From NCBI GenBank assembly GCA_015055725.1, contig SVHO01000005.1:76-64075 (forward strand): a stretch of 64,000 nucleotides of DNA, given 5' to 3'. Below the pieces are notes generated by a model. That model had not been told where the DNA came from, did not search any database, and was given only the letters and a program-made list of their open reading frames with translations. Source of the DNA: Clostridiales bacterium (GTDB lineage Bacteria; Bacillota; Clostridia; Christensenellales; Borkfalkiaceae). The position numbers and the translations under genes were made by a program. Shown piece after piece: positions 35,519 to 61,450 of the stretch. Positions within the stretch are counted from its first letter, which is position 1; each line of letters begins with the position of its first letter.

Positions 35519-36186
35519 TTTAGAACCACCTTATATCCAAGACCGTGAACGGTTGCAATTTCAAAGCCGTCACAACAAGCAGTCTTTTCGCGAAGTTTTG
35601 CCATGTACACGTCAACCGTGCGAGATGTTGTTGAAGAATCGTAATCCCAAAACTCTGCCATAAGCGCAGAACGAGTAAACGTCTTTTTAGGATATGAAAG
35701 CATTTTGAATAAAATGTCAAACTCTCTAACGGTGAGCGCAATTTCTTCACCGTCAATTAATGCCGTGCGTTCTTCAACGTTCATCGAAAAGTTGCCAAGC
35801 GTTATCTCTTTTTCCGCTTCGATTTTTGCTCGCCTTAAAATCGCTTTAATGGTCATAAGCAAAATATCCATATCGAAAGGCTTAGTCACGTATTCATCAA
35901 TGCCAATATTATACCCTAACATTTTTGAAGGCTTGTCGTCTTTAGCCGTCATAAAAATAATAGGCGTTGTTTTATCAGTTGCGCGCACGCTTTCTGCAAG
36001 TTCAAAACCGTTCATTTTCGGCATCATAATATCTGTTAAAAGAAGGTCACATTTTTCTTCGTTCATCTTTTCAAGCGCATCTACCCCGTCAACGCACGAA
36101 GTCACTTCATACCCTGCGTTTCTAAGGCTAGAACAAACAAAGCGGTTTAAGTCAACGTCGTCTTCAACCACGAATATTTTAATCAT
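35515..36186 (-). CDS. OmpR/PhoB-family response regulator
   Basis: Receiver domain (VVEDD...DLLLTDIMMP...K) plus a winged-helix Trans_reg_C domain (LTVREFDILFKML...VDVYMAKLREK...GLGYKV). Confidence 0.92.
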   Translation of the reverse strand: MIKIFVVEDDVDLNRFVCSSLRNAGYEVTSCVDGVDALEKMNEEKCDLLLTDIMMPKMNGFELAESVRATDKTTPIIFMTAKDDKPSKMLGYNIGIDEYVTKPFDMDILLMTIKAILRRAKIEAEKEITLGNFSMNVEERTALIDGEEIALTVREFDILFKMLSYPKKTFTRSALMAEFWDYDSSTTSRTVDVYMAKLREKTACCDGFEIATVHGLGYKVVLK

Positions 36187-47600: not shown

Positions 47601-48219
47601 TTATGTATCTTTGGAGTTGAATTAAGTCTTGCAAATTGATATAGCCGTTAAAGTCAACGTCACCTTTAAGGTTTGTTTGTTCTTGCTTAGCTGAAACGTA
47701 AATATCACCAAAATAGATGCCATAATTTACGTCGTTTGCTTTGTCATCAACGAAAAAAGTCTCAATATCGCTACCATGAGAAAAACTCGTGATAAAATCG
47801 CCTCCATGGTTTAACTCAAAGTCAACGTACATTAAATCAACGTTTCCAGCATAGCTGTAAGCAGATGAATATATAACGTTAAACCCTGTATCCGTGTAAA
47901 CAAAACTAAAACTATCAGTTTCGTTTTTAGACATCTCTTCACTTACACGAACGTTAGTGACTCTAAGTGATTGGGGAACGTCTATACTTATTTGGTAAGA
48001 CGCTATACCGCTCGTTTCGGCATAAATCCTTGCCGTATGAACCGTATTTAAATCACTTTCAATGTTCATAGTGTCAGAATAAACGTTCACGTATGAACTG
48101 GTTGTTTCCGTTGTAGAATAATCCGCAGCGGAAACGGTTGCTATAGCGCCACCCAACGCGCTAAACGAAAGCACGAGAGCAACGACTAATGAAAAAAGTC
48201 TTTTCTTAAAATTTTCCAT
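44641..48219 (-). CDS. giant secreted protein 3: cohesin-like module, then dockerin, then about 940 aa of unknown modules
   Basis: Start at ATG 48219 (AGGAG plus 7 nt). Signal peptide ends ...ATVSA-ADY. Two-segment dockerin GDVDFNGYINLQDLIQLQRYI / CDINNDGSINVKDCQYIQMYL at nt 47494-47664. A cohesin-like beta pattern lies at nt 47689-48093. The remaining modules are separated by N(M/I/N)GG linkers. Confidence 0.8.
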   Translation of the reverse strand: MENFKKRLFSLVVALVLSFSALGGAIATVSAADYSTTETTSSYVNVYSDTMNIESDLNTVHTARIYAETSGIASYQISIDVPQSLRVTNVRVSEEMSKNETDSFSFVYTDTGFNVIYSSAYSYAGNVDLMYVDFELNHGGDFITSFSHGSDIETFFVDDKANDVNYGIYFGDIYVSAKQEQTNLKGDVDFNGYINLQDLIQLQRYIIENVSLGDDLIYVCDINNDGSINVKDCQYIQMYLVGELSSLENIGGGSGTVDTYSLTIMVYDQDGNKFHSVETRAKQGQTYGEVCQPLFEKLERQYNITAYNGVSSNVYGRYESEELASNLTINANDIVCVYVTISNGNEEVKEISVTFEVYMEVNGELSNMATVPVNVREGVLINEYVIEYFSGMDVVAFYDQGFSNPVVENDTFKENITIYVIAKTSSIDGEYDLYERDDYGKNVAVGKLSFSGEEVQIVYGDKKYNATYVNMSGSIIATVDTFVQFTFYQYEGMYILNYFFDGSNYETVEELKEIQGEKQVLITDGPGLVSAFFYDNGVWEMELAGIIMYNDYELNDTGVTLYLFGRPQDFILNDKGIWEPANNGGSEDYEANVYIVVLNTRGEEIARMPMNEDDGAPYDNIIWNALRSFGFETEMVTNIYSEQHGDITKNYYDFYVEGYDRIEITVDTNMGGGETQSTYYNLYVLYDMGGQYVPYDSYTQIHISQDEYLYEHVMNNMKDEIAGAYVEMGELYYDYALTRPVEKSDMVSGSVDVYVVVSDIEIEGKFNIVGYDESYENKYVMGTVEFTNGTATVNINDQSYSGPYYKMYRGIEVRTGEYSQILLSIYGDEVDFDAMFDGSDFKVSDEFTQIAGTYNVNMDYAPMEMSLILCNNGVAKLSVGKVCMMGRYSLTDTGIILYMDEMMGAADGLEFTYDPETNSFIAQNMGGNDGPSAEYPEMSYDVESAFGSYISMMEDGSSLVINENGFVYTTAMGNQESGTQISAMIMPGQMGQVYLGVNDGKGYTVMLDIAQGYFMIMDSFDVSNIQVVPEHKEMAGYYAYVVDGMNLGSFELGEDGIAIIYNGPFMAKSAYVVVDAQTIACAGGEYIIDRASRTITPNMGGSDVPSVDQPVEFITYTYTDVEGNTYWIDIRTDGTFFVKSTNGMEDNGKYRQMSEVDYTLYGSQTYSLTITMDGGVSYFEIIAMSDSTITIK

Positions 48220-48257
48220 TTTACTTCTCCTTTTTGAATTTTTCATATTTGACTTTT

Positions 48258-51200
48258 TTATTTTTCAACGTAGTCTATCACGAAATCGGTTTGTACGATT
48301 TGACCGTCTTCATTGATAACGTACATTTCTTCTATAATAACGTTTAGTTTTGCCATATCAAAACTGTTTGCATCAAACAAGAACGTCATAATATGCGTTT
48401 GTTCGGTGGTATTTTCACCCTTTGACCAAACGAACTTAACGAACTGTCCGTTATTGTAAGCATATGAATATTCGTCCGTGTAAGCACCGCCAAACGCCAT
48501 ATCATTAAAGTCAATTCTGCCTAAAAGACCTGCAAAGTTAACTTTACCTTTAATTTCAACGTCAACTTGAACGTTGCCCCTTCCGTCGTTAGAAACGTTA
48601 ACTACCACGTTATTGTCTTTAAGTTCGATAGTAGTTATATTTCCGTCAATTCTAACGTCTTCACTCGGCATAATTTCAGGTGCGTTTTGCCAACCGCTAA
48701 ACACTTGGTTTTCACTAAGCTCAGGCGCATCTATTAAAGTGATTTGTTCGCCTTCAAGAACTTTATCGGTATAATAAATTTGACCGTCAACGTAATAGTT
48801 AACTTGATAGAATTTCTTTATAACCGCATCAATTCTAACGTCTTCGCTCGGCATAAGTTCAGGTGCTTTGCCCCACGCAACGAAGAAGATATTTTCATCT
48901 AAATCGTCAGGTGCGCCGATTAAAGTGATTTCGTCGCCTTCAAGAACTTTCTCAGTGTAATATATAGAACCTGCAACGAAGTATGAAACTTCAAAATATC
49001 TCTTGATTATCGCGTTAACAACGATATCTTCTTCTGGCATAATTTCAGGCGCTTTTTCCCACGCAACGAAGAAGATGTTTTCATCTATATCGCTTGGCGC
49101 ATCAATTAAAGTTATTTTATCACCGGCAAGAACTTTATCCGTGTGACACAAACTGCCGTTTACGTAATAACTAATTTGGTAATATACCCTAATAATTGCG
49201 TCTACTCTTACTGATTGTTCGGGCATTATTTCTGGAACTTCAGTCCAACCACCAAAGTATAAGTTTTCATCTAAGTTGCTCGGCTTACCAATTAAAGTTA
49301 TCTTATCGCCTGCAAGAACTTTATCCGTGTGGTATAAATCACCGTTCACGAAATAGTTAACTTGATAATAATTTTTAACTATAGCGTCAACTCTAACTGC
49401 ACGTTCAGGCATAATTTCAGGAACTTCAGTCCAACCAACGAAGTATAAGTTTTCGTCTAAATCACTTGGCTCACCAATTAAAACGATTTCTTCACCTTCA
49501 AGAACTTTATCCGTTAAATATAGATTTCCTTCTACATAATAGTTAAGTTGATAATATCTCTTAATAACCGCGTCAACTCTAACGTTGTTCTTGGGCATAG
49601 TTTGTGGTGCGGAAGACCATTCAACGAAGCAGATATATTCGTCTATGTCCGTAGGAGCATCTATTAAAACGATTTCATCGCCTTCCTTAATTTGAACGCT
49701 TTGATAAATCACGCCGTCAACGTAATATGAAAGTGTGAAATATTGCAACTTATAAGTCGTTGCAAACACAACGAGACTTTGTGCAGGCATAATTTCAGGA
49801 ACTTCAGACCAGCCTGAGAATATAACGTCTTCATCATCGTAAGTGGGTTGGTCAATCAAAATAATTTGAGTGTTATATTCAACTGATTGAGTTTTATAAA
49901 GCATACCGTTTACGTAATAATAAACGTTATAAGACAACGGGCTAAATTGCGCGTATACGTTAGTTTGTGCTTTTATAGGCGTTGCGTAATCGAAAACGCT
50001 TTGGTCTTCGTTAGTCCAACCGACGAACTTATAACCCATTTTTTCAGGAGTGCCCACGATTGACGCCCTTAAACCATAATTTACTTGTTGAATAGCAACA
50101 ACGTTTTCGCCGTTATAGAAAGTCACGGTGAACGTTTTAATCTTGTAAACGGCAGATATTGTCATATCTTTGGTTATCTTTTCATAATTTGCGTTCCAAC
50201 CGTCAAAAATATAGCCTTCTCTTTCGGTGTCGGTTGGTGCAACTGCGTCTTTAAGATAAGTGACTAATTGAACGTCCGTTTTATCGCCATATTCAAAAGT
50301 GACTTTATAAGTGTTAATTTCAAAGACTGCGTTAACGGTTAAATCACCTTTAACTTCAACAAACGATTTATCCCAACCCTTAAAGGTGTAGCCTTCTTTA
50401 ACGGGATTTGCAGGTGCTATTGCGCTTGCGTCTTCGCTAACGACTTGTTCTTTGCCGTAAAGAACGCCGTCAACCCTAAATTCTACCGTGTAGGTGACTG
50501 CAGGTTTTACTTCCCACTTAGCGTAAAGCATAAAATCCGTCGTGACACCAAGTGAAAAGTCATAAGGCAAGGTGAACTCTTTATCTAAATACCAGCCGAT
50601 GAAAACGTGATTTTCTTTATCGTAAAGTTTTAACGGCGCGGTTTCTCCGTATTTCAATTCTACGTTATCAATTATTTGAAACGAGCCTTTTTCAACTTCT
50701 TCCCTATAAGTGACTTCGTAAGTTCTTTGTTCGTAATTAGTGAAGAGTATGGTATCTTGCGTTATGTTTTTATAATGCTGACCAATAGTTTCACCGTCGC
50801 TCCAACCCAAGAAGTCATAACCTTCTTTTTCAGCGAGAACGGGCACTTTTGCATCTTTGCCATATTCAACGTATTGAATAGCACCAACTCTCTTGCTACC
50901 GTTATAGAAGATAACAACGAACGTTTGAGCGCGGAATTTTGCGGTGACAACGATATCTTTATCAATATTTTTAAATCCGATATCCCAACCGTCAAATTCT
51001 TTGCCTTCGGGAATTCTAATCTTATCTAAATCGGGTTCTTTTGCGTTTTGACCATATTTAACCGTTTGAACTTCTATTTCACCCTCATCATCAACGAAAG
51101 TGACGGTGTAAGACATAATAGAGAATATAGGATAAACGTCTAAATCGCGCGTGACTGACGAAAAGTCTTGTGTCCAACGCAAGAATTCATAACCTTCTCT

Positions 51201-52190
51201 ATAAGGGTCACCTGGAACGATTGCGCCTTGCCCTTCTTCAACTAATTGAGTTCCGCCGTATTGAGTGCCGTCGTAATTAAAAAATCTTACGCTATACTTT
51301 GGTTTTTCAATAGGAATAAATTTAGCAAACAAATCAACGTCTTTATCAATCGCACTATAAAAATCAAACATTGACGTTGCCTCTAAACTTTCATACCAAC
51401 CTATAAAGATATAATTTTCTTTACTTGGCGCAGTCGTTGGGAAACTTGCATATTCGCCGTAAGCAACCGTTTGCACGTCGTGCACGTCTTGGTCAACGTA
51501 GAAAGAAACTTGATATTCGTCAGGTTGATATTCAACGAAAATTTCAGTATCTTGCGTTATTTCTTCAACTTCACCTTTATACCCTATAGCCGTGTAATGC
51601 TCAACGTTAAATTCGCTAAGGTCGGGAAGATTTGCATTTTGCCCGTGAACGACTTCTTTTGTAAATAAAACTTGGTCGTCAAGTCCGTAAACGGTGACGG
51701 TATAAGTTTTATCTTCTAAGATTGCGTTTACGGAAAGGTTTTCGTTAACACCTGTAATATCAACGTTTTCCCAACCGACAAAACGTTTGCCCTCAGGGCA
51801 TTCTACCGTTGCAGGAGCAATCGCGTTTTCCCCTTCGATAACTTTTTGAGTGTTAACGACAATGCCGTCAACCAAAAATTTCACTTCAAAAATTTTCAAA
51901 GGAACGTCCCAGTCGGCAATCAGTATTAAATCTTCTTTAATTCGAGTTCTAAACGAGAATTTTTCTCCGTTAAGCGTCCAATGCTTAAACAATGCGCCGT
52001 CTTTTGTGGGCGTTGCAGGAACGGATAAATAATCTCCGTCAGCCACTTCAACCTCTAAATACGTTTCAGTTTCGCTAAGCATAAATAAAACTGTATGTTC
52101 TTCTTGTGCAGATGCGCTAAAAGGCGCAACTGCAAAGCAAGGTATTAGAAGTGCCAACAATATGGTTAAAAACAAAAATTTCTTTTTCAC
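48258..52190 (-). CDS. giant secreted protein 2: Listeria-Bacteroides (Flg_new) repeats, seven 62-aa repeats, C-terminal cohesin-like module
   Basis: GTG start after a GGGAGG RBS. Signal peptide ends ...FSASA-QEE. About 11 repeats of type Y.V.F......Q.V..G..A..P..P..EGY.F.GW. The C-terminal 124 aa (nt 48261-48632) reads VQVDVEIKGKVNFAGLLGRIDF...FVKFVWS...IMTFLF. Confidence 0.8.
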   Translation of the reverse strand: MKKKFLFLTILLALLIPCFAVAPFSASAQEEHTVLFMLSETETYLEVEVADGDYLSVPATPTKDGALFKHWTLNGEKFSFRTRIKEDLILIADWDVPLKIFEVKFLVDGIVVNTQKVIEGENAIAPATVECPEGKRFVGWENVDITGVNENLSVNAILEDKTYTVTVYGLDDQVLFTKEVVHGQNANLPDLSEFNVEHYTAIGYKGEVEEITQDTEIFVEYQPDEYQVSFYVDQDVHDVQTVAYGEYASFPTTAPSKENYIFIGWYESLEATSMFDFYSAIDKDVDLFAKFIPIEKPKYSVRFFNYDGTQYGGTQLVEEGQGAIVPGDPYREGYEFLRWTQDFSSVTRDLDVYPIFSIMSYTVTFVDDEGEIEVQTVKYGQNAKEPDLDKIRIPEGKEFDGWDIGFKNIDKDIVVTAKFRAQTFVVIFYNGSKRVGAIQYVEYGKDAKVPVLAEKEGYDFLGWSDGETIGQHYKNITQDTILFTNYEQRTYEVTYREEVEKGSFQIIDNVELKYGETAPLKLYDKENHVFIGWYLDKEFTLPYDFSLGVTTDFMLYAKWEVKPAVTYTVEFRVDGVLYGKEQVVSEDASAIAPANPVKEGYTFKGWDKSFVEVKGDLTVNAVFEINTYKVTFEYGDKTDVQLVTYLKDAVAPTDTEREGYIFDGWNANYEKITKDMTISAVYKIKTFTVTFYNGENVVAIQQVNYGLRASIVGTPEKMGYKFVGWTNEDQSVFDYATPIKAQTNVYAQFSPLSYNVYYYVNGMLYKTQSVEYNTQIILIDQPTYDDEDVIFSGWSEVPEIMPAQSLVVFATTYKLQYFTLSYYVDGVIYQSVQIKEGDEIVLIDAPTDIDEYICFVEWSSAPQTMPKNNVRVDAVIKRYYQLNYYVEGNLYLTDKVLEGEEIVLIGEPSDLDENLYFVGWTEVPEIMPERAVRVDAIVKNYYQVNYFVNGDLYHTDKVLAGDKITLIGKPSNLDENLYFGGWTEVPEIMPEQSVRVDAIIRVYYQISYYVNGSLCHTDKVLAGDKITLIDAPSDIDENIFFVAWEKAPEIMPEEDIVVNAIIKRYFEVSYFVAGSIYYTEKVLEGDEITLIGAPDDLDENIFFVAWGKAPELMPSEDVRIDAVIKKFYQVNYYVDGQIYYTDKVLEGEQITLIDAPELSENQVFSGWQNAPEIMPSEDVRIDGNITTIELKDNNVVVNVSNDGRGNVQVDVEIKGKVNFAGLLGRIDFNDMAFGGAYTDEYSYAYNNGQFVKFVWSKGENTTEQTHIMTFLFDANSFDMAKLNVIIEEMYVINEDGQIVQTDFVIDYVEK
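48633..49935 (-). repeat. seven tandem coding repeats of about 186 bp (60-63 aa) in giant gene 2
   Basis: Units such as YYQVNYFVNGDLYHTDKVLAGDKITLIGKPSNLDENLYFGGWTEVPEIMPEQSVRVDAIIR recur 7 times with 50-80 percent identity by eye. Confidence 0.8.
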
Positions 52191-52208
52191 TTTTATTTCC
52201 TCCCTTTA

Positions 52209-55200
52209 TTATTGATTTAAAACTTTTGCGTAAAGTTCAATATCTTCGGTGATAGGCGTCGTTTCAAACACAAACGGAACGTCACTATCTTTTAAGCACC
52301 AGTAATATTCGTCGCCGTAAGGCGCGGGTTCGATTGCGTAATAATTTTTAGCAACGACTTGAATATTACCATAAACGTTTTCGTTAGGGTCGTAGAAGGT
52401 GACTGTATACATATCTGCAAGTTTTCTATATTTTGCAGTAAGCGTTATGCCTTCTTCCGTTATCGGTGTTGAGAAGTCAAACGGTGTTTCTTCGTCGTCA
52501 AGATACCAATACATAAACACGCTACCAGGTTTTGACGGAGTGTTTGGAATACTTACGCATGCGCCGTATTCAACCTTAACTTCAAGAAGTTGATTTGAAA
52601 CGCCGTCGTTAAAGAACACTATTCTCTTTTGAGTTAAATATACCGCGCGGACGTCTAAATCTTTAGTTATGCTATCGATATTGTGGCTCCAACCGCTAAA
52701 CTCTTTACCTTCAATAGTGGGAATAAGAGATAATTCGGGGGCTTGTGAGCGCGCGCTCTTTAAGTATTCAACTTGAATTGTTTGACCTATTTGAACAGTG
52801 CCGTCAACGTTAAAGAATCTAACGTTATACTTTTTAGCCTTATATATAGCCACAACGGTTATATCTTCTCTAACGTTATCAAACGCTTTATCCCAACCAA
52901 CGAAGTCATACCCCGTGATAACGGGTGCGTTAGGTTCGATTGCAGAGTTGCCTTCAATAACCGTTTGTTTACTTATCAAAGTGCCGTTTGGGGTTGCAAA
53001 TTCAACTTGGTATTCTTCAACAACTATAATTTCAAATTTAGCGTAAATAGTGGTATCTTTCTTTATAGGTTGATTAAAGTTGAAAACGTTTTCAAAGTTT
53101 TCGTCAGCATACCAGTTAATGAAACTATAACCTGCTTTGCTTGGCGTAATCGGAACGGAAAGCGTGGTGTTATATTCAACGTTATCTACCGTAATTAAAG
53201 CTTCTTTGCTATCTCCGTCAACAAACGTTGCCGTGAAAACGTGCACTTGGTAAACTGCGGTAACGATAAGGTCTTTTTTAACTTCATCAAATTCCGTATC
53301 CCATTTAACGAAGGTATAACCTTCTTTGTCAAGGTCGGTAGGAGCAGTTGCGGAGTTTCCAAATTCAACCGTTTGTTTTTCTCCCATTTGAGAACCGTCA
53401 CTATCCTTAAATATAACGGTGAACGTTTTAATTTCGAAAATTGCGTATACTTCTAAGTCGTTTTCAATTTTATTAAACGCTTTATCCCAACCAACGAAAG
53501 TGTATCCTTCTTTCACAGGGTCTGCTGGTGCCGTTGCACTGCCACCTTTAACGACTGATTGTTCGTCAATAAGTTTTTCGCTTTGTTTATCAATAAATTT
53601 AACCGTACGTATTTCAGCAGGTTTTTCTTTCCATATAGCCAAAACATCTTCATCTTGAATTATTTTAGAATCAAAGTCAAATTCAACGTCTTGATCGTTA
53701 AAGTAAACCCATTTAACCCATAAATAATCGTCTGCAGTAGGCGTTGTCGGCTTAATTGCACTCGCCATATATTTTACGCTTTGGGTTTCATAAACGTTTT
53801 CATCAATCTTTTCATTTGCAATATAGAAAGTCACTTTGTAAGAGTTTACCGTATAAGATGCGGTGATGGTTAAATTGCTATTTATACCTTCTTCTCTATC
53901 GAAATCGGTTATAGCACCCGTCTTTTCGTCTATAATCACCCAACCCGCAAAGGTGTGCCCTTCTTTTTCGGGGTCTGCGGGCAAGTGCGGAACGGTTTGC
54001 CCTTCTTCAATAGATTGAACGCCACTTAGTTCAGCGCCGTTATCATTTACGAATATAACGCTATACATAGTCACTCTCTTTTCCGTTCTTGCGTAAAGAT
54101 TTAAATCTTTGGTCACGTTTGCAGTTGCGTCGTAAAGAGTTTTAAACGTAGGGTCGGTATACCAACCGATAAAATTATAATTATCTTTTTCATATGTATA
54201 AAGCGTGACGGGTGTGTTATAATCAACCTTTTCAAAGTGAACTCTTTCATAGCCGTCGTAAAAACTTACTTCACGTTTTTCCGCTTCAAAGCGCGCTTCA
54301 ATCACGCAATCGTTTGCAGGCATATTAAACGTGTAATTAGGCGTTTCACAAACGTTTTCATTATCAACGAACCAGCCGACGAAGTCATATCCAACTTTTT
54401 CAGTTGCCGTGAGCGAAATGCTATCGGCATAATTGACTTTACGGCCACTAATCTTTCCGTTATTTTCTTTAACACTACCCATATTTTCATCTTTAGAACT
54501 GAAAGAAAGCGTGTAAGTGTTAACGGTAAATTGTGCCTCCAAGGTAATTTCACTTGCAGACATATCGAAAGTATACGTTGCCGAAGTGCTTACCCTTTGC
54601 GTGCCTTTATACCAACCGTCAAAGGTATAACCCGTGTTAGCAGTTGCAGTTATGGTCACAGATTGACCGAACAAAACGTCACTACCACTTGCAATAGAAC
54701 TTGAAACCGTTCCTTTTGTATCACTTTCAGATGAATAGTTAAGTTTATAACTATTAGTTTCAAATTGTGCTTCTAAGGTAAGCGCGTTTGCAGGCATATC
54801 GAAAGTATACGTTGCAGACGTGTTAACGATTTCCGTGCCGTTATGCCAACCCTTAAAAGTATAACCCGTGTTAGCAGTTGCAGTTAAAGTGATAGATTGA
54901 CCGAATAAAACGTCGCTATCGTTTGCCGTTTGGCTACTAACCGTACCTTTTGCCGTGCTTTCAGAACTAAACTTAAGTTTATAACTATTAGTGCTAAAAT
55001 GTGCTTCTAAGGTAATTGCGCTTGCCTTCATATCGAAGGTATACGTTGCAGACGTGTTAATAATTTCCGTGCCGTTATACCAACCAACGAAGGTATAACC
55101 TGCATTAGCGGTTGCTGTTATGGTCACAGATTGACCGAACAAAACGTCGCTACCACTTGCAATAGAACTTGAAACCGTTCCTTTTGCATCACTTTCAGAT

Positions 55201-56024
55201 GAATAGTTAAGTTTATAACTATTAGTTTCAAATTGTGCTTCTAAGGTAAGCGCGTTTGCAGGCATATCGAAAGTGTACGTTGCAGACGTGTTAACGATTT
55301 CCGTGCCGTCATGCCAACCCTTAAACGTATAACCTGTGTTAGAAGTTGCAGTTATCGTCACAGATTTACCGAACAAAACGTCACTACCACTAGCGATAGA
55401 ACTTGAAACCGTTCCTTTTGCATCACTTTCAGATGAATAGTTAAGTTTATAACTATTAGTTTCAAATTGCGCTTGCAAGGTAAGCGCGTTTGCAGGCATA
55501 TCGAAAGTATACGTTGCAGACGTGTTAACGATTTCCGTGCCGTTATGCCAACCAACGAAGGAATAGCCTGCGTTTGCAGTTGCAGTTATCGTCACCGACT
55601 GGCCGAAAGAAACGTTGCTACCACTAGCGATAGAACTTGAAACTGTTCCTTTTGCCGTATCTTCCGAACTGTAGTTAAGCGCAAAAGTGTCTAAAACGAA
55701 TTTAGCGGTATAATCCACGTCAGCCGTAAGTTTAACGGTAAGTGGGTTATCGTTTGAAGATTTTGCGCCGTCAAGATACCAGCCGTCAAAAACGTAGCCG
55801 GTGTTTGCGGTTGCAGTGAGAGTAAACTCGCTCCCCTTGTTATACTTATTGCCTGAAGAAACGTCTTGCCCGTTTTTATCAACGCAAGAAACCACGCCGT
55901 AAGCCGTGTTTTCGGTTGCAAAAGATAAGGTGTATTTTTTTGCGGGCTTACTGCACGCAAAAGAAAACGAGCAAACTAAAGCAACAATCATAAGTAAGGT
56001 TAATAAAAGTTTAGATTTTTTCAC
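52209..56024 (-). CDS. giant surface protein 1 (possible lipoprotein): divergent InlB-B-type repeats plus Listeria-Bacteroides repeats
   Basis: GTG start after an AAGGAG RBS. Signal peptide has Cys24 (FSFAC-SKP, a non-canonical lipobox). About seven repeats of roughly 78 aa, GTVSS....G..V.FG.SVTITAT.N.GY.F.GW, are followed by about ten Flg_new repeats. Confidence 0.8.
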   Translation of the reverse strand: MKKSKLLLTLLMIVALVCSFSFACSKPAKKYTLSFATENTAYGVVSCVDKNGQDVSSGNKYNKGSEFTLTATANTGYVFDGWYLDGAKSSNDNPLTVKLTADVDYTAKFVLDTFALNYSSEDTAKGTVSSSIASGSNVSFGQSVTITATANAGYSFVGWHNGTEIVNTSATYTFDMPANALTLQAQFETNSYKLNYSSESDAKGTVSSSIASGSDVLFGKSVTITATSNTGYTFKGWHDGTEIVNTSATYTFDMPANALTLEAQFETNSYKLNYSSESDAKGTVSSSIASGSDVLFGQSVTITATANAGYTFVGWYNGTEIINTSATYTFDMKASAITLEAHFSTNSYKLKFSSESTAKGTVSSQTANDSDVLFGQSITLTATANTGYTFKGWHNGTEIVNTSATYTFDMPANALTLEAQFETNSYKLNYSSESDTKGTVSSSIASGSDVLFGQSVTITATANTGYTFDGWYKGTQRVSTSATYTFDMSASEITLEAQFTVNTYTLSFSSKDENMGSVKENNGKISGRKVNYADSISLTATEKVGYDFVGWFVDNENVCETPNYTFNMPANDCVIEARFEAEKREVSFYDGYERVHFEKVDYNTPVTLYTYEKDNYNFIGWYTDPTFKTLYDATANVTKDLNLYARTEKRVTMYSVIFVNDNGAELSGVQSIEEGQTVPHLPADPEKEGHTFAGWVIIDEKTGAITDFDREEGINSNLTITASYTVNSYKVTFYIANEKIDENVYETQSVKYMASAIKPTTPTADDYLWVKWVYFNDQDVEFDFDSKIIQDEDVLAIWKEKPAEIRTVKFIDKQSEKLIDEQSVVKGGSATAPADPVKEGYTFVGWDKAFNKIENDLEVYAIFEIKTFTVIFKDSDGSQMGEKQTVEFGNSATAPTDLDKEGYTFVKWDTEFDEVKKDLIVTAVYQVHVFTATFVDGDSKEALITVDNVEYNTTLSVPITPSKAGYSFINWYADENFENVFNFNQPIKKDTTIYAKFEIIVVEEYQVEFATPNGTLISKQTVIEGNSAIEPNAPVITGYDFVGWDKAFDNVREDITVVAIYKAKKYNVRFFNVDGTVQIGQTIQVEYLKSARSQAPELSLIPTIEGKEFSGWSHNIDSITKDLDVRAVYLTQKRIVFFNDGVSNQLLEVKVEYGACVSIPNTPSKPGSVFMYWYLDDEETPFDFSTPITEEGITLTAKYRKLADMYTVTFYDPNENVYGNIQVVAKNYYAIEPAPYGDEYYWCLKDSDVPFVFETTPITEDIELYAKVLNQ
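54516..55685 (-). repeat. five tandem 234-bp (78-aa) coding repeats, several near-identical at DNA level, in giant gene 1
   Basis: Protein residues 114-503 form five 78-aa units (YKLNYSSESDAKGTVSSSIASGSDVLFG.SVTITAT.N.GYTF.GW..GTEIVNTSATYTFDMPANALTLEAQFETNS). DNA blocks such as gcaggcatatcgaaagt(a/g)tacgttgcagacgtgttaacgatttccgtgcc recur at multiples of 234 bp. Confidence 0.85.
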
Positions 56025-56374: not shown

Positions 56375-56881
56375 ATGGATAAAGTATGTTTTGAATTTGA
56401 AAACGGCAAAAAAATCAACCTTGAATTATATAGGGAACACGCACCCCTATCGGTTGAAAACTTTTTGGATTTAGTTAAGAGTGGTTTTTACGACGGATTG
56501 TGTTTTCACCGCATAATCGAAGGTTTTATGATACAAGGCGGTGGCTTTGAATGGAAAAACGGGTTGGTTAATAAAGAAGCGCCAAAAACGATAAAAGGCG
56601 AATTTATTTCAAACGGCGTAAACAACACGTTAAAACACGAAGCAGGCGTTATTTCAATGGCAAGAACAATGTTTCCAAACTCAGCGTCGTCACAATTTTT
56701 CATTTGTGTGGACACACACCCACATCTTGACGGGCAATACGCAGGCTTTGGAAAAACGTGTGATGAAGAGAGCTTAAAAGTTGCCATAGAACTATCTAAA
56801 GTTGCAACCACTTACGTTAACGGTTATGCAGACGTTCCTGTAGAACCCGTTGTGATTAAAAAAGCATACGTAATCGAATAA
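56375..56881 (+). CDS. ppiB: cyclophilin-type peptidyl-prolyl cis-trans isomerase
   Basis: 168 aa. FHRIIEGFMIQGG and SMARTMFPNSASSQFFI motifs. AGGAGAG RBS. Confidence 0.93.
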   Translation: MDKVCFEFENGKKINLELYREHAPLSVENFLDLVKSGFYDGLCFHRIIEGFMIQGGGFEWKNGLVNKEAPKTIKGEFISNGVNNTLKHEAGVISMARTMFPNSASSQFFICVDTHPHLDGQYAGFGKTCDEESLKVAIELSKVATTYVNGYADVPVEPVVIKKAYVIE

Positions 56882-56901
56882 TATAATAAATTTAAAATTA
56901 T

Positions 56902-56940
56902 ACGCCCCACGGCAAATATCTGCCGTGGGGCGTTCTTTAT
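56902..56940. terminator. bidirectional terminator between ppiB and the MFS gene
   Basis: ACGCCCCACGGCA-AATATC-TGCCGTGGGGCGT followed by TCTTTAT. Confidence 0.75.
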
Positions 56941-58345: not shown

Positions 58346-58383
58346 ATAAAAAAACCCGCGCCCCACCAAAAGTGGAGCGCGGG
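58346..58383 (-). terminator. intrinsic terminator after the 665-aa (668-aa in the ORF track) gene
   Basis: Minus strand: CCCGCGCTCCAC-TTTT-GGTGGGGCGCGGG followed by TTTTTTTATTT. Confidence 0.75.
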
Positions 58384-58405: not shown

Positions 58406-60403
58406 TTAAACTTGCTTAAACGTGTTGTAAACCTTGGTTAAGGATTGAGCGGTGACAGGTTGACCACCAATCGTATCAATAAGAAGTGCTGCAGTACAAT
58501 CGAAGATTGTGATATTAACGTGCGTCACGTCTTTAAACTCAGTCCATGTGCCCGTGGTTTCTGTCCATTCAGAACTTACCGTTGAATCTTGCATACTAGT
58601 CGGGCAAAGATTTACTGCAGTAGGTGCTTTATTAATATCAGTAGTATATCTTAAGAACACTTCACTGTTGACAATCGATACACCCATCATTTCGTAAAAA
58701 TACTTATCTTCGTTCATAAGATATTGATTGCCGTTAGGGTGAATTAAGCTACCTATAGGTCTTTCAGAGTGGCCATAATCTGCCCAACCATAAGTCATAG
58801 TATATTTTCTGATTACAGAACCAGAAACGCCATATAGTTTAGACCATTTAGCAGGTCTCATACCCATATGCATATGAGCAAAATTGCTAGCATAAGTTTG
58901 ATTTTCTACTGAAAAATAAACGTACACGAAATTATTTGCATCATTAACGTCTTCAATCTTCATTTTAATATTTTTAGCAGACTTAGTGACGTTTTTATTT
59001 ACTGCAAAACGAATCAAATCAGTTGTTCCATCCGTTAAAGGAACGTTCTCAACAAACGTGTTAACAACAGGGCCAGCAGTTATTTCAATTGCATTTGTAG
59101 CGATATCGCTATCCGCAGAACCTTTTGCAACAAATTTAGAACATTCAACCACGTGTTCATAAGAATAAGTCACACCATAACTATCGGTATAATTGATAAG
59201 TACGGTTTCATCACCCATAGCGTTAGTTGCTTTTCCACCATTTCTTAAATAAATATAAGAAGCATGCCCATAATTAGAACCAGGCACTAACCAAGAAGTT
59301 TCATCATAATCTTTAACGGTGTATACTGTTTCTGCTTGAGCACTAGTGTTTTCATCGTCAGTCCAATAATTTAAGCCCCTCAAAGAAATAAATTGCCCTT
59401 TGCCAGAAGCATAATCTTTAGCAACAAAAGTTTCTAATTTAAAAGTCGGAACGGCATTGAGTTTCACGCCGTGACGTTTAATTGTTAAGTCACCTAAATC
59501 AATTTCTTTAGAGCCTATGGAAAACCCAAGTTCATACACACCTGATTTAAGGAAAGTATATTTGTTTTCTTCAGCATTAAATCCAATGCAGTCATAATCA
59601 ACAAGGTCATCTTTAGTTAAAACAAGTTTAACACCTGCTGTAAGAGTTTTGTTGTTGCTGGGGTTCTTAACGGTTGCGGTTGCAACAAACTCATCTCCAC
59701 GATACGCAACGCCGTTTTCAATTGCGTTGCCATCAACAGCCAAGTCTATGTCCGAATATTTCTCAGTCACACTGTCAACCACGTCAACGAGATAATCTTT
59801 AACTGCTTTTTGTGCGGGAATATCTTCTTCAAATTCAGCGGTTGCTAAATGCTTAGATGCAACTTCAAATATGTTCTTTTGTGAATATCCCTTTGCATAG
59901 AAATATTCGTTGCCAATTTTATAATACGCTTTTGCCGTAAATCCACGCGCAAAGTTGCTTTCTTTAATATTTATAAAAGACGCGCACAAAACGTATTCTG
60001 TTTCATCGCCGTCATCATCATAGTCGTTAAGGTCGATAACAGGGGTATTAACACCTTTAGCAAAATATTTTTGTGCGGGATTTTCTTCATCATATTCAGG
60101 CAAATCACTGTTGCCAAAGCGCAAATCTTCAACGTTGCTAATCCAATCGGTAGGAACTAAAATAATACCGAATTCAATACCATCAATATTTTTCAACTTA
60201 TCATAGTCATCTGAACCGATTGTTGCAGCAAATCTAATGCCGTTAGGCCCGCTTTGACGAACTTGAACGGCGCTTGCCATTTCAAAAGTTGTCACTTCGT
60301 TAGAAGCGTAAGCGTTGCCAACACCAAGCATTGCAATTGACATACAAAATGCGAAAACAAGCGTTAAAATAGTTAGCGAAATTTTTGTAAATCTTTTACT
60401 CAT
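58406..60403 (-). CDS. secreted protein of unknown function (665 aa from ATG 60403; 668 aa from the track ATG 60412)
   Basis: Signal peptide ends ...GVGNAYA-SNE. Beta-rich and Asp/Asn/Tyr-rich, with no catalytic motif recognised. AGGAG lies 11 nt before ATG 60403 and only 2 nt before ATG 60412, so the start is ambiguous. Confidence 0.7.
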   Translation of the reverse strand: MSKRFTKISLTILTLVFAFCMSIAMLGVGNAYASNEVTTFEMASAVQVRQSGPNGIRFAATIGSDDYDKLKNIDGIEFGIILVPTDWISNVEDLRFGNSDLPEYDEENPAQKYFAKGVNTPVIDLNDYDDDGDETEYVLCASFINIKESNFARGFTAKAYYKIGNEYFYAKGYSQKNIFEVASKHLATAEFEEDIPAQKAVKDYLVDVVDSVTEKYSDIDLAVDGNAIENGVAYRGDEFVATATVKNPSNNKTLTAGVKLVLTKDDLVDYDCIGFNAEENKYTFLKSGVYELGFSIGSKEIDLGDLTIKRHGVKLNAVPTFKLETFVAKDYASGKGQFISLRGLNYWTDDENTSAQAETVYTVKDYDETSWLVPGSNYGHASYIYLRNGGKATNAMGDETVLINYTDSYGVTYSYEHVVECSKFVAKGSADSDIATNAIEITAGPVVNTFVENVPLTDGTTDLIRFAVNKNVTKSAKNIKMKIEDVNDANNFVYVYFSVENQTYASNFAHMHMGMRPAKWSKLYGVSGSVIRKYTMTYGWADYGHSERPIGSLIHPNGNQYLMNEDKYFYEMMGVSIVNSEVFLRYTTDINKAPTAVNLCPTSMQDSTVSSEWTETTGTWTEFKDVTHVNITIFDCTAALLIDTIGGQPVTAQSLTKVYNTFKQV

Positions 60404-60452
60404 TTTTACCATTTCTCCTTTTTTTAGAGTATTGTTTTAAGCAAAGTCTTGC

Positions 60453-60572
60453 TTAGAACATTCCGTCTCCATCAGCGCCGAACACGTCACCAATTTGACC
60501 ACCGCTCATTGAGAGCACACATTCGTTTGCAAATTCATCAACTTGAATTTGTGGACTAACGTATAGTTTCAT
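60453..60572 (-). CDS. unannotated 39-aa peptide with a double-glycine-type leader pattern
   Basis: Not in the ORF track (under 60 aa). AAGGAGG RBS lies 7 nt before the ATG. Translation: MKLYVSPQIQVDEFANECVLSMSGG-QIGDVFGADGDGMF. It has its own promoter at 60636-60665 and is co-oriented with the secreted-protein gene 40 nt downstream. Confidence 0.55.
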   Translation of the reverse strand: MKLYVSPQIQVDEFANECVLSMSGGQIGDVFGADGDGMF

Positions 60573-60635
60573 ATTTAATCCTCCTTTATACCACCTACTC
60601 AATGATATACACAAAGTGTAATATACTACTGTAAT

Positions 60636-60665
60636 ATTTTACCCCCTGTTAACTAGTTTTGTCAA
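60636..60665 (-). promoter_or_regulatory. promoter of the peptide / secreted-protein unit
   Basis: Minus strand: TTGACA, 18-nt spacer, TAAAAT. This gives a leader of about 55 nt to ATG 60572. Confidence 0.55.
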
Positions 60666-60668
60666 TGC

Positions 60669-60716
60669 CAAAAATTACGATATTTTACCTATTCTATGTC
60701 AAAAATTACGATATTT
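60669..60716 (-). repeat. two 17-nt direct repeats (AAATATCGTAATTTTTG) spaced 31 bp apart and abutting the -35
   Basis: Plus-strand caaaaattacgatattt occurs at 60669-60685 and at 60700-60716, with identical copies. Each contains the imperfect palindrome AAAT..CG..ATTT. Confidence 0.8.
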
Positions 60717-60737
60717 AATTAAAGTACGACAAATAGC

Positions 60738-60769
60738 AAAAAACGCTTAATCTTTTTAGATTAAACGCT
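60738..60769 (-). terminator. intrinsic terminator after the YtxH-like gene
   Basis: Minus-strand RNA AGCGUUUAAUCU-AAAA-AGAUUAAGCGUU forms a 12-bp stem including two G-U pairs, followed by UUUUG. Confidence 0.65.
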
Positions 60770-60786
60770 CTTTGTTTTTTGATAAA

Positions 60787-61057: not shown

Positions 61058-61450
61058 TTAGTCTTGGTCGGGTTCTAAACTTTGCGCTTCTTCAGCAAGT
61101 TCGTCCTCTTCCATAACTCTGCAGAATTCATCAAACACTTCGTCTAAAAGTGCGTCGTCTTCTACGGGAAGAAGGTCAGCAGTTTCTTCGTCGTCACCAG
61201 AAAGTTCAAATATAATAAGGTCGTCTTCTTCAATGCCGTCAATCTCTTCAGCAGGTTCAAATGCCGAATAATATTTACCCTTATATTCAATAGTTTTAAT
61301 AAAATAAAACTTTAATTTCTTTCCGTCTTCAGTGGTGAGTTCAACAATTTCGTCACAACCGCAATCACAATCGTGTTCTTCACAGCCACATTCACATTTA
61401 TGTTCGTGTTCTTCACAACCGCAGTTGCATTTCTTTTCTTTTTCGCTCAT
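61058..61450 (-). CDS. DUF1292 (UPF0473) family protein with a Cys/His-rich N-terminal extension
   Basis: The core ELTTEDGKKLKFYFIKTIEYKGKYYSAFEP...DDALLDEVFDEF fits the DUF1292 pattern. It is in the conserved position after ruvX. The N-terminus is KKCNCGCEEHEHKCECGCEEHDCDCGCDE. Confidence 0.75.
   Translation of the reverse strand: MSEKEKKCNCGCEEHEHKCECGCEEHDCDCGCDEIVELTTEDGKKLKFYFIKTIEYKGKYYSAFEPAEEIDGIEEDDLIIFELSGDDEETADLLPVEDDALLDEVFDEFCRVMEEDELAEEAQSLEPDQD

What the first reader, a model, noticed from the sequence alone, without database searches (positions are those of the whole stretch)
60453..60572. Unannotated 39-codon ORF with a consensus RBS and a double-glycine-type leader: candidate secreted signalling or bacteriocin-like peptide
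The ORF is below the 60-aa cutoff of the track. It has the best RBS in the window (AAGGAGG, 7 nt from the ATG), its own TTGACA-18-TAAAAT promoter, and a small hairpin (AAGCAA-GACU-UUGCUU) that overlaps its stop codon by 1 nt. The peptide is MKLYVSPQIQVDEFANECVLSMSGG-QIGDVFGADGDGMF. Counting back from Gly24-Gly25, hydrophobic residues fall at -4 (M), -7 (V), -12 (F) and -15 (V), with acidic residues at -9, -13 and -14. That is the spacing of double-glycine leaders cleaved by C39-peptidase ABC exporters. Cleavage would release a 14-residue, strongly anionic, Gly/Asp-rich core. No exporter, modification enzyme or cognate regulator is encoded nearby, which is the main weakness. The only operon partner is the unknown secreted protein of 665 aa (668 aa from ATG 60412).
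Basis: partly seen in the sequence, partly recalled or inferred. Interest (0 to 1): 0.65.

Follow-up and report, generated by a model that had tools for sequence, protein, structure and literature searches.

The report
Conserved microprotein paired with surface-protein domain
The 39-codon ORF is a real, conserved gene from a large, unnamed family of small acidic peptides in gut and rumen Clostridia; it is not a double-glycine bacteriocin, and its gene always lies next to the end of a surface-protein gene that encodes one particular unannotated domain.

Summary
The ORF, its AAGGAGG ribosome-binding site, the promoter-like site and the stop-codon hairpin are all present as described. It is coding: every homologue of the downstream 665-aa protein (down to 27% identity) has a 39-43-aa ORF just upstream. 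dN/dS against a paralogous copy is 0.19.

The double-glycine/C39 reading fails. Gly-Gly at positions 24-25 occurs in only 5 of 47 relatives, no curated GG-leader model matches, and the 64-kb window encodes no C39 exporter.

The peptide belongs to a family with no Pfam or NCBIfam model and more than 150 distinct members. It has a constant N-terminus, MKxYxxPxΦxΦ..F..(E)D(V/I)Φ(T)xS23, followed by a hypervariable acidic tail rich in Trp/Phe. The YxxPxΦ motif and the Thr two residues before Ser23 match leaders bound by RiPP recognition elements, but no maturation genes are linked.

In 45 of 47 adjacent proteins, an unannotated domain ("X" here, "Y" elsewhere) sits at the protein end nearest the peptide gene.

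Best reading (confidence about 0.4): a leader-plus-tail microprotein that is the cognate partner of that surface-protein domain. Where and how they meet is inferred, not shown.

The parts
60737..60774 (-). Intrinsic terminator of the upstream gene. It marks the 5' boundary of the peptide's transcription unit.
   Evidence: 17-bp stem followed by a T-run.
60662..60716 (.). Two 24-nt direct repeats (60662-60685 and 60693-60716), 92% identical and 31 nt apart. The proximal copy overlaps the -35 hexamer. Candidate operator for an unknown regulator.
   Evidence: the repeat finder family D1. Its function was not tested.
60636..60665 (-). Sigma-70-like promoter, TTGACA-18-TAAAAT.
   Evidence: 11 of 12 consensus matches. 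This is a consensus match only, with no expression data.
60580..60586 (-). Shine-Dalgarno sequence AAGGAGG, 7 nt before the ATG.
   Evidence: the only AAGGAGG in the window. The same strong SD is present in all orthologous loci.
60507..60572 (-). Codons 1-22 of the peptide: the constant, leader-like part (MKLYVSPQIQVDEFANECVLSM). It carries the family motif M-K-x-Y-x-x-P-x-Φ-x-Φ..F..E.VΦ.
   Evidence: M1, Y4 and P7 are invariant, K2 nearly so, and positions 9, 11, 14, 19 and 20 are hydrophobic across 47 + 105 relatives.
60456..60506 (-). Codons 23-39: the conserved Ser23 and the acidic tail SGGQIGDVFGADGDGMF, holding the clade motif I-x-D-V-F-G and the C-terminal Met-Phe.
   Evidence: Ser is found in 44 of 47 and 104 of 105 relatives, although the search pattern also allowed T, R, C and W. 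The tail is hypervariable across the superfamily but conserved within the clade.
60453..60455 (-). Stop codon TAA of the peptide ORF.
60439..60454 (-). Small hairpin (6-7 bp stem, 4-nt loop) overlapping the stop codon by 2 nt. Probably incidental.
   Evidence: z = -2.3. There is no T-run, and it is absent from the paralogous loci.
58406..60403 (-). Gene for the secreted 665-aa multi-beta-sandwich protein. It is 668 aa if read from ATG 60412. ATG 60403 fits the SD AAGGAG at 60420-60415 and the MSKK/MSKR starts of the homologues.
   Evidence: AF2 model has pLDDT 69.5 and is a string of beta-sandwich domains; Foldseek hits are S-layer, cadherin and Ig-like chains only. No Pfam domain.
60305..60412 (-). 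Signal peptide or N-terminal anchor of the large protein (MVKMSKRFTKISLTILTLVFAFCMSIAMLGVGNAYA).
   Evidence: Read directly from the sequence. Helix at residues 6-36 in the model.
59741..60301 (-). 'Domain X' (residues 38-224): an unannotated beta-sandwich plus helical hairpin. This is the part that co-occurs with the peptide family.
   Evidence: jackhmmer finds it in 33 neighbours of family peptides. It lies at the protein end nearest the peptide gene in 45 of 47 cases when counted with domain Y. No relative in Pfam or, by sequence, in the PDB.
58355..58383 (-). Strong intrinsic terminator that ends the two-gene operon.
   Evidence: 13-bp stem with 10 G-C pairs plus a T-run.

Best explanation
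The ORF encodes a 39-aa acidic microprotein with no fold of its own. It is made from a two-gene operon together with a secreted 665-aa multi-beta-sandwich protein, and it is a member of a large, so far unnamed family in gut and rumen Clostridia.

The peptide has two parts.
- **Residues 1-22** are a constant docking element of the leader type. It carries YxxPxΦ plus a small or Thr residue two positions before an almost invariant Ser23. This is the kind of motif that RiPP recognition elements bind by beta-strand addition.
- **Residues 23-39** are a variable acidic tail (here SGGQIGDVFGADGDGMF) with an Asp-x-Phe/Trp motif and a C-terminal aromatic residue.

I propose that the tail is the cognate partner of the unannotated 'domain X' that follows the signal peptide of the downstream protein. 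The constant N-terminus would be recognised by shared machinery encoded elsewhere, which removes it at or near Ser23 and exports the tail. The peptide would then meet domain X outside the cell.

**Shown:** coding conservation, the family and its architecture, the bicistronic unit, and the gene-order rule with domains X and Y.

**Inferred:** physical binding, leader removal, export, and the compartment where peptide and domain meet.
For: 1. **Coding and pairing with the downstream protein.** All eight clusters of homologues of the downstream protein (27-51% identity) have a 39-43-aa ORF immediately upstream. This includes a paralogous pair in the same genome. dN/dS is 0.19. All copies have an AAGGAGG SD.
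2. **A real family.** There are 14 close clusters and 9 remote ones from a profile search of 1.84 billion proteins. Positions that were not in the search patterns are conserved: S23 in 104 of 105, Thr at -2 in 58 of 105, E/D17-D18 and F/L14.
3. **Link to secreted proteins.** Adjacent same-strand ORFs have signal-peptide-like N-termini in 28 of 37 cases against 32 of 127 elsewhere in the loci, and in 50 of 80 against 43 of 156.
4. **Gene-order rule.** Domain X or Y is N-terminal in 24 of 25 proteins encoded downstream of the peptide. It is C-terminal in 21 of 22 encoded upstream. Distant clade members P0028, P0030 and P0036 also sit 33-53 nt upstream of domain-X proteins whose remaining domains differ.
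5. **Peptide alone is unstructured.** AF2 gives pLDDT 57 and no secondary structure.
6. **Never fused.** No larger protein carrying the peptide was found in the 1.84-billion library. The long hits there are FG-GAP-like repeats.
7. **Leader motif.** It equals the [Y/W]xxPx[L/V/I/F/A] element bound by discrete RREs (PMC13381572). Thr(-2) is the lasso leader hallmark (PMC10368454). One weak relative, in L042, sits between an NTP_transf_5 gene and a radical SAM gene.
8. **Operon boundaries.** The operon is bounded by terminators on both sides.
Against: - No binding, processing or export has been shown. No complex prediction was possible with the tools.
- The peptide has no Sec signal and its partner domain is extracellular. 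A separate export route has to be assumed, and no exporter, peptidase or RRE recurs near any of about 150 loci.
- Some family members are not next to surface proteins. One subfamily lies between hydF and nadE.
- Domains X and Y were detected in only 47 of the loci with assessable neighbours. Other neighbours carry other, unclassified terminal segments.
- Within the window's clade the tail is about as conserved as the leader. Co-divergence with the partner could therefore be plain co-inheritance.
- Ascertainment was by DNA patterns that required a strong SD and the N-terminal motif. Many contigs are short, and some loci are near-duplicates.
- The signal-peptide call is a crude home-made heuristic.
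Confidence: 0.4

Rival explanations
1. It is a cytoplasmic accessory microprotein. The whole 39-aa peptide stays in the cell and binds the nascent terminal domain X (or Y) of its neighbour before export. It would act as a holdase, an anti-folding factor or a targeting factor. The constant N-terminus would contact a common cytosolic component, and no leader would be cleaved.
For: - The peptide has no export signal, and its longest hydrophobic run is at most 6 residues.
- Spacing typical of translational coupling is seen: -38 to +53 nt downstream, and a mode of 12-15 nt upstream. This suggests production in step with the neighbour.
- The gene-order rule places the peptide's synthesis beside the mRNA end that encodes the domain.
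- No exporter or peptidase is linked in any locus.
Against: - When domain X directly follows a signal peptide it would be exported early, leaving little time for a cytosolic partner.
- The sharp contrast between a constant head and a hypervariable tail, and tandem copies with different tails (L181), look like leader/core peptides.
- No precedent of this size is known to me (own knowledge).
- Members occur in housekeeping contexts.
Confidence: 0.2
2. It is a precursor of an RRE-dependent RiPP, or of an exported signalling or antimicrobial peptide, whose maturation genes lie elsewhere in the genome. The product would act independently of the neighbouring protein. The adjacency would then reflect co-regulation with glycan-use and surface-protein loci rather than binding.
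For: - The YxxPxΦ motif and Thr at -2 before a conserved small residue are present. These are the features RREs and lasso-type leader peptidases use (PMC13381572; PMC10368454).
- The tails are hypervariable, there are several copies per genome (L001 and L002 in one assembly), and tandem copies occur.
- L042 is a relative inside a cluster of NTP_transf_5 and radical SAM genes within a capsule locus.
- Stand-alone members exist.
Against: - It does not explain the 45-of-47 rule tying the peptide gene to the protein end that holds domain X or Y.
- It does not explain the 12-15-nt coupling either.
- No RRE, cyclase, leader peptidase or exporter occurs in the 64-kb window, and none recurs elsewhere.
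- The lasso ring criterion is not met: an acid at core positions 7-9 occurs in 66 of 108, against 54-76 in control windows.
- The tail has almost no Cys and no repeated Ser/Thr pattern.
Confidence: 0.17
3. The peptide has a double-glycine leader that is cut after Gly24-Gly25 by a C39-peptidase ABC exporter. That would release QIGDVFGADGDGMF as a bacteriocin-like or signalling peptide.
For: In the window's peptide alone, GG is present and hydrophobic residues fall at -4, -7, -12 and -15. The leader is non-hydrophobic and acidic, like GG leaders. Gly is the commonest residue after Ser23 (40 of 105).
Against: - GG occurs in 5 of 47 and 5 of 105 relatives. G[GAS] anywhere in residues 19-30 occurs in 11 of 47.
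- Orthologues of the same operon have NGS, SNG or SNF at this site.
- No GG-leader, ComC, Nif11 or NHLP model matches at E <= 10.
- No C39 exporter is in the window or recurs in related loci.
- The invariant residues Y4 and P7 are not part of the GG-leader consensus.
Confidence: 0.03
4. It is a cis-acting regulatory leader ORF. Translation or stalling on the small ORF would control transcription or translation of the downstream gene, and the peptide itself would have no function in trans.
For: In the window it is the first ORF of the operon, 40-49 nt ahead of the next start, and a small hairpin sits at its stop codon.
Against: - In most family members the ORF lies downstream of its large neighbour, and sometimes it is the last gene.
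- The hairpin is not conserved. The spacer is A-rich and unstructured, and nothing sequesters the downstream SD.
- Rfam finds no leader or riboswitch here.
- The strongest conservation is at the N-terminus, not at the C-terminal residues that would sit in the ribosome tunnel.
Confidence: 0.05

Closest known systems
Leader peptides bound by RiPP recognition elements (lasso peptides; linear polyphosphorylated peptides, LPPs, of Bacillota)
   Same: The N-terminal [Y/W]xxPx[L/V/I/F/A] motif is shared. So are a Thr two residues before a conserved small residue, a constant head with a variable tail, the small size, the lack of a Sec signal, and the occurrence in Bacillota. LPP precursors likewise carry a conserved Ser just after the leader (YxxPxVLxHQxIxFETxxS; PMC13381572).
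   Different: - Tyr lies 19 residues before Ser23, against -15 to -17 in lasso peptides and LPPs.
- The register of the rest of the motif differs from LPP.
- No RRE, B2 or SipW-like peptidase, cyclase, kinase or pump is linked in about 150 loci.
- No ring-forming acid is preferred at core positions 7-9.
- The genes are tied to surface-protein genes rather than to a biosynthetic cluster.
Double-glycine leader peptides exported by C39-peptidase ABC transporters (class II bacteriocins, ComC/BlpC, Nif11/NHLP peptides)
   Same: Both have a non-hydrophobic, acidic leader of about 23 residues with spaced hydrophobic positions. In both, several unlinked precursor genes could share one exporter. The window's copy happens to have Gly-Gly.
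   Different: The Gly-Gly is not conserved. The invariant residues (Y4, P7, S23) are foreign to that consensus. No model matches and no C39 exporter was found.
Peptide-receptor cassettes with linked specificity (agrD with agrB/agrC, comC with comD)
   Same: A small variable peptide gene is kept next to the gene segment for the domain thought to recognise it. The arrangement favours co-inheritance of matching pairs.
   Different: The partner here is a terminal beta-sandwich domain of large surface proteins at glycan-use loci, not a histidine kinase. No AgrB-like processing gene is present. Binding is only inferred.
Small targeting or partner proteins encoded beside large exported proteins (for example the Lap partners of LXG effectors in type VII secretion); comparison from my own knowledge
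   Same: A small ORF is tightly coupled to the gene of a large exported protein and pairs with its terminal domain.
   Different: Those partners are helical proteins of about 100 aa that serve a type VII system. Here the large proteins have ordinary Sec-type signal peptides, and the peptide is 32-50 aa and predicted to be unstructured.

Membership tests
Double-glycine leader / C39-PCAT substrate | G-G (or G-A, G-S) at the cleavage site, conserved among homologues | tested here: not met
   GG at positions 24-25 occurs in 5 of 47 and 5 of 105 relatives. Orthologues have NGS, SNG or SNF.
Double-glycine leader / C39-PCAT substrate | Leader consensus: hydrophobic residues at -4, -7, -12 and -15, and an acidic residue at -8 | tested here: inconclusive
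   The window peptive has M, V, F and V at those positions, but Cys at -8 and Glu at -9. The register is meaningless in relatives that lack GG.
Double-glycine leader / C39-PCAT substrate | A C39-peptidase ABC exporter in the locus or genome | tested here: not met
   None is in the 64-kb window, and none recurs in related loci. The rest of the genome could not be searched.
Double-glycine leader / C39-PCAT substrate | Match to curated GG-leader, bacteriocin or pheromone models | tested here: not met
   Pfam and NCBIfam give no hit at E <= 10 for 11 family members.
RRE-dependent RiPP leader (lasso / LPP type) | [Y/W]xxPx[L/V/I/F/A] motif in the leader | tested here: met
   Y4 and P7 are invariant, and position 9 is L, I, V, M or F in 47 of 47. 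The motif was part of the search patterns used. It is independently invariant in the 24 sequences found by protein searches.
RRE-dependent RiPP leader (lasso / LPP type) | Thr at the penultimate leader position, before a small first core residue | tested here: met
   Thr lies two residues before Ser23 in 58 of 105 and 13 of 47 relatives. Ser23 itself occurs in 104 of 105. The window copy has Ser at that position. The cleavage site itself is not shown.
RRE-dependent RiPP leader (lasso / LPP type) | Linked genes for an RRE (PqqD-like), a leader peptidase and a modifying enzyme | tested here: not met
   They are absent from the window and from neighbours in about 150 loci. The only exception is the weak relative in L042.
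Lasso peptide | Asp or Glu at core position 7, 8 or 9 to close the macrolactam ring | tested here: not met
   An acid at positions 7-9 occurs in 66 of 108, against 54-76 in control windows. The Asp of the D-x-F motif ranges over positions 3-13.
Regulatory leader peptide (attenuation or translational arrest) | Lies upstream of the regulated gene, with alternative RNA structures or a sequestered ribosome-binding site | tested here: not met
   Most members lie downstream of their neighbour. The spacer is unstructured, the hairpin is not conserved, and Rfam finds nothing.
Sec-dependent or Agr/RRNPP-type pheromone precursor | N-terminal signal peptide or amphipathic membrane-targeting helix, with an adjacent regulator or processing gene | tested here: not met
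   The longest hydrophobic run is at most 6 residues and the net charge is about -5. No AgrB or RRNPP regulator was seen in the neighbourhoods. An AraC regulator is present in one subfamily only.

The most novel reading that the evidence does not exclude
Gut and rumen Clostridia may carry a previously unrecognised two-part surface-protein module. One part is a leader-bearing microprotein with a hypervariable acidic, aromatic tail. The other is a terminal beta-sandwich domain (X or Y) that can be grafted onto either end of many surface proteins, including glycan-locus proteins and Flg_new, beta-helix and CBM proteins. The tail would be the specific ligand of the domain in trans. This would amount to a peptide-coded system for assembling, anchoring or switching surface proteins, served by export and processing machinery that has not been identified.
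Probability: 0.3. Interest if true: 0.85.

Novelty: new variant of a known kind. Interest (0 to 1): 0.68.

Why it matters
Small ORFs below annotation cut-offs are the least explored part of gut-microbiome genomes. This one opens onto a family with more than 150 distinct members in human-gut and rumen Clostridia. No Pfam or NCBIfam model covers it, and the papers searched do not mention it.

Its gene-order rule links it to two equally unannotated terminal domains of large surface proteins, many of them in polysaccharide-use loci. If the pairing is physical, it would explain how these bacteria assemble, retain or regulate surface proteins that lack known anchors. It would also give a peptide-domain pair that could be used as a tool.

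If the peptides are instead RiPP-like products with remote maturation genes, they would be a large class that cluster-based genome mining cannot see.

Either way, the hypotheses can be tested directly with one peptide and one domain of 187 residues.

Tried and rejected
- **Rfam.** Scanning 56-64 kb gave only a sub-threshold His_leader hit elsewhere. There is no riboswitch or leader RNA here.
- **Pfam and NCBIfam.** Neither the peptide nor ten diverse relatives match anything.
- **Protein search with the 39-aa peptide.** I used the 53-aa TTG-extended frame and an alignment headed by a 43-aa member instead.
- **The search for related loci.** I replaced them with my own degenerate DNA patterns.
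- **Lasso-peptide reading (Ser23 as residue 1, Asp29 as residue 7).** Rejected, because the acid shows no positional preference across the family.
- **Attenuator or arrest-peptide reading.** Rejected; see the rival explanations.
- **Read-through or fusion with the upstream ORF.** Rejected. The gaps of 9-29 nt show no three-base periodicity, and no fused proteins were found.
- **Phage origin.** The pattern gave no hit in 2.9 million viral contigs.
- **AF2 of the peptide alone.** No structure was predicted.
- **Foldseek with the 668-aa model.** Only generic Ig, cadherin and S-layer beta-sandwich strings came up, with TM-scores of 0.10-0.16. No function could be assigned.
- **PDB sequence searches with domains X and Y.** Nothing was found.
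- **Similarity of the tail to FG-GAP-like propeller repeats (P0024, P0029).** Treated as a short-motif resemblance only.
- **Literature searches.** Motif strings and topic terms found no description of the family.
- **P0035 context.** The contig was too short to be informative.
Full report
**1.

On the minus strand, 60572..60453 encodes MKLYVSPQIQVDEFANECVLSMSGGQIGDVFGADGDGMF.

- AAGGAGG lies 7 nt before the ATG. It is the only AAGGAGG in the 64-kb window on either strand.
- TTGACA-18-TAAAAT matches the sigma-70 consensus at 11 of 12 positions, at 60665..60636.
- The hairpin AAGCAA-GACU-UUGCUU exists (z = -2.3). It overlaps the stop codon by two bases rather than one.
- An intrinsic terminator lies upstream at 60774..60737. 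A strong one at 58383..58355 follows the large gene. Together they delimit a two-gene operon.
- The large gene more likely starts at ATG 60403 (665 aa) than at 60412. This follows from the position of its AAGGAG and from the MSKK/MSKR starts of its homologues.

**2. The ORF is a gene**

The downstream protein has only eight homologous clusters among 5.8 billion proteins, at 27-51% identity. Every one of their loci has a 39-43-aa ORF directly upstream. This includes a paralogous copy in the same assembly that carries the near-identical locus (L001 and L002).

Against that paralogue the peptide is 72% identical. dN/dS is 0.19, and 18 of 31 nucleotide differences fall on third codon positions. 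All copies keep an AAGGAGG-type SD. Rfam finds no RNA element in the region.

**3. The double-glycine reading fails on comparison**

- Orthologues read ...DVLANGSQIGDVF......DVILSSNGLIEAPF... and ...NVMYASNFTQE... at the supposed cleavage site.
- Across 47 relatives, GG occupies positions 24-25 in 5. All five belong to the window's own clade.
- In an independent metagenome set the figure is 5 of 105.
- No Pfam or NCBIfam model matches the peptide or ten diverse relatives, even at E <= 10. That includes the models for GG-leader bacteriocins and pheromones.
- I annotated all but three short (130-198 aa) of the non-shadow ORFs of at least 120 aa in the window with Pfam. The content is housekeeping: purine synthesis, Trk, DXS, queuosine, RuvB, IF3 and others. 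There are also two ABC-2 exporters with a two-component system, an HtrA-like protease, a dockerin protein and two giant Flg_new proteins.
- The window holds no C39 exporter, radical SAM enzyme or RRE.

**4. What the peptide belongs to**

Several searches recovered relatives.

| Search | Result |
|---|---|
| Profile search of the clustered protein collection | 14 close clusters |
| Profile search of 1.84 billion representatives | 9 remote small proteins of 39-55 aa |
| DNA pattern (SD + MKxYxxPxΦxΦ + DxF) in one genome per GTDB species | 50 loci, 33 with a family peptide, nearly all MAGs of gut or rumen Clostridia |
| First pattern in 2.9 million viral contigs | Nothing |

The family consensus is M-K-(K/N)-Y-x-x-P-(E)-[L/I/M/V]-(E)-[I/V/F/L]-x-x-[F/L]-x-x-(E)-D-[V/I]-[I/L/M]-(T)-(A/T)-S-(G). 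A tail of 8-63 residues (median 20) follows.

Positions that were not imposed by the patterns are conserved. Ser23 occurs in 104 of 105 where S, T, R, C or W were allowed. Thr lies two residues before it in 58 of 105.

The tail has these properties:
- It is hypervariable and strongly acidic, with a mean charge of -3.9.
- It is almost free of Cys.
- It contains [D/E]-x(0-2)-[W/F] in 74 of 105.
- The last aromatic residue is usually within three residues of the C-terminus.

The window's I-G-D-V-F-G...M-F is the local version of this pattern. One contig, L181, has two tandem copies with the same head and different tails. AF2 predicts no structure for the peptide alone (pLDDT 57).

**5. Resemblance to RRE-bound leaders**

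[Y/W]xxPx[L/V/I/F/A] is the element that discrete RiPP recognition elements bind in lasso peptides. It also occurs in the recently described linear polyphosphorylated peptides of Bacillota, whose consensus is YxxPxVLxHQxIxFETxxS (PMC13381572). A Thr at the penultimate leader position is the lasso hallmark (PMC10368454).

The family meets both features. It fails two other tests.
- Linked maturation genes are absent. The one exception is a weak relative in L042, which lies between an NTP_transf_5 gene and a radical SAM gene in a capsule locus.
- There is no preferred acidic residue at core positions 7-9. The count is 66 of 108, against 54-76 in control windows.

I therefore treat 'works like an RRE-type leader' as a lead, and 'is a lasso peptide or LPP' as not supported.

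**6. The context gives the strongest result**

*Neighbours are secreted proteins.* Same-strand neighbours of family peptides have signal-peptide-like N-termini far more often than other ORFs of the same loci.
- Genome set: 28 of 37 against 32 of 127, p = 4e-8.
- Metagenome set: 50 of 80 against 43 of 156, p = 3e-7.

These figures rest on a crude heuristic.

*Position of the peptide gene.* In the window's clade the peptide gene lies between 38 nt of overlap with the next start and 53 nt upstream of it. In most of the superfamily it lies 9-29 nt downstream of a large gene. The mode is 12-15 nt and there is no three-base periodicity.

*Domain X.* The first 300 or so residues of the window's protein are shared with a 1232-aa protein that is otherwise different. 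That protein (32% identity, E = 6e-35) also follows a family peptide. An iterative search seeded with residues 38-225 found this domain in 33 neighbours. I call it domain X. In the AF2 model it is a beta-sandwich plus a helical hairpin. It has no match in Pfam or, by sequence, in the PDB.

*Domain Y.* A second unannotated domain of about 115 residues, often duplicated in tandem, was found in 14 more neighbours.

*The rule.* In 45 of 47 adjacent proteins, the domain sits at the protein end next to the peptide gene.
- It is N-terminal, just after the signal peptide, in 24 of 25 proteins encoded downstream of the peptide.
- It is C-terminal in 21 of 22 proteins encoded upstream.
- Counting only proteins of at least 400 residues, my own tally from the table gives 27 of 29.

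*Further support.* The remote clade members P0028 and P0030 also precede domain-X proteins. The remaining parts of these proteins are varied: Flg_new repeats in 10 of 60, and CBM77, beta-helix, Big_2, cohesin-like and NlpC/P60-like segments. Many loci are glycan-use clusters with ABC sugar permeases, large solute-binding lipoproteins, DUF4838, GH31, GH26 and CE15.

*Fusions.* The peptide was never found fused to a larger protein.

**7. Interpretation**

The peptide gene and the DNA for domain X or Y behave as one cassette that can be attached to either end of a surface-protein gene. This is what one expects when two products must match each other.

The constant head, shared across partners of type X, type Y and other types, points to a common recognition step. 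The variable tail points to partner-specific contact.

I therefore favour a leader-plus-tail microprotein whose tail is the cognate partner of the adjacent domain. Removal of the head at or near Ser23 and export by unlinked machinery are inferred steps (confidence about 0.4).

The main rival keeps the pairing but places it in the cytoplasm, with the whole peptide acting as an accessory factor before export (0.2). A RiPP or signal peptide that acts independently of its neighbour (0.17) explains the head but not the gene-order rule. A cis-regulatory leader ORF (0.05) and the GG/C39 model (0.03) are contradicted by the family data.

**8. Caveats**

- There is no expression, processing or binding evidence.
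- A complex prediction was not possible with the tools.
- Relatives were ascertained with patterns that demand a strong SD and the N-terminal motif.
- Many contigs are short and some loci are near-duplicates.
- E-values for domains X and Y refer to a small custom set of neighbour ORFs, although the scores are high (1e-11 to 1e-77).
- Domains X and Y account for only part of the neighbours.
- At least one subfamily sits in a housekeeping context between hydF and nadE.

**9. Novelty**

The kind of object, a small leader-bearing peptide, is known. This family, its size, its lack of linked maturation genes and its strict pairing with unannotated terminal domains of surface proteins are not covered by Pfam or NCBIfam. 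The papers searched do not mention them either.

Noticed in passing
window 60662-60685 and 60693-60716: Two 24-nt direct repeats (AAATATCGTAATTTTTG[G/A]CAT[T/A]GA on the minus strand), 31 nt apart. The proximal copy overlaps the -35 hexamer of the peptide operon and looks like a tandem operator. A related AATATCGTG lies upstream of the -35 in L012 and L016, which have an AraC-type regulator next door.
   Followed up: partly
window 29514-36186 (-): Two consecutive pairs of ABC_tran and ABC2_membrane_4 genes, a DUF2975 membrane protein, and an OmpR-type response regulator with its histidine kinase. The layout resembles modules for sensing or resisting antimicrobial peptides. It lies 24 kb from the peptide and has no C39 domain.
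   Followed up: partly
window 44641-56024 (-): Three giant secreted proteins in a row: a 1201-aa protein with a type I dockerin, and proteins of 1310 aa and 1271 aa packed with Listeria-Bacteroides (Flg_new) repeats. Flg_new proteins are frequent neighbours of family peptides elsewhere, but no second family peptide was found in this window.
   Followed up: partly
window 61058-61450 (-): The DUF1292 protein has an unusual N-terminal Cys/His/Glu-rich stretch (KKCNCGCEEHEHKCECGCEEHDCDCGCDE). It may bind metal.
   Followed up: no
L042 5675-7998: Inside a capsule-synthesis locus, an NTP_transf_5 (PF14907) gene is followed by a 67-aa peptide with a YxxP leader and a Gly/Phe/Trp-rich tail (…GGFFGGGFGNWFGGFFGRRNRR), and then by a radical SAM gene. 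This looks like an undescribed RiPP cluster of the kind discussed in PMC13381572.
   Followed up: partly
L181 741-863 and 1181-1300: Two family peptides in tandem share almost the same head (MKKYE[M/A]P[A/E]LELKVFALEDVIA) but have unrelated tails. One tail contains two Cys.
   Followed up: no
L179 (also L080, L146, L168): A subfamily ending in ...GDNETPIIPGK sits between hydF (after hydG) and a glutamine-dependent NAD synthetase gene, with an ABC-2 exporter further downstream. No surface protein is adjacent, so not all members obey the pairing rule.
   Followed up: partly
P0024, P0029: The family profile also hits the repeat units of FG-GAP-like beta-propeller proteins (…YLKASNTEAGDQFG.SV.ISGDT…). 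These share the pattern Φ-Φ-x-A-S-x(4-5)-D-x-F-G with the peptide. This may be chance, or it may hint at the strand-loop-strand shape the peptide adopts when bound.
   Followed up: no
window 56812-56938 (+): A weak Rfam match to the His_leader family (25.7 bits against a gathering score of 49; E = 0.66). Most likely chance.
   Followed up: no
window 40935-42026 (-): A 363-aa protein made of four DUF1508 repeats.
   Followed up: no
L083, L084, L105, L161, L173, L194 (C-termini of proteins upstream of family peptides): Several upstream neighbours that lack domains X and Y end in a similar beta-rich segment (…G.SY.[FV]TV.…). This suggests at least a third peptide-associated terminal domain type.
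   Followed up: no
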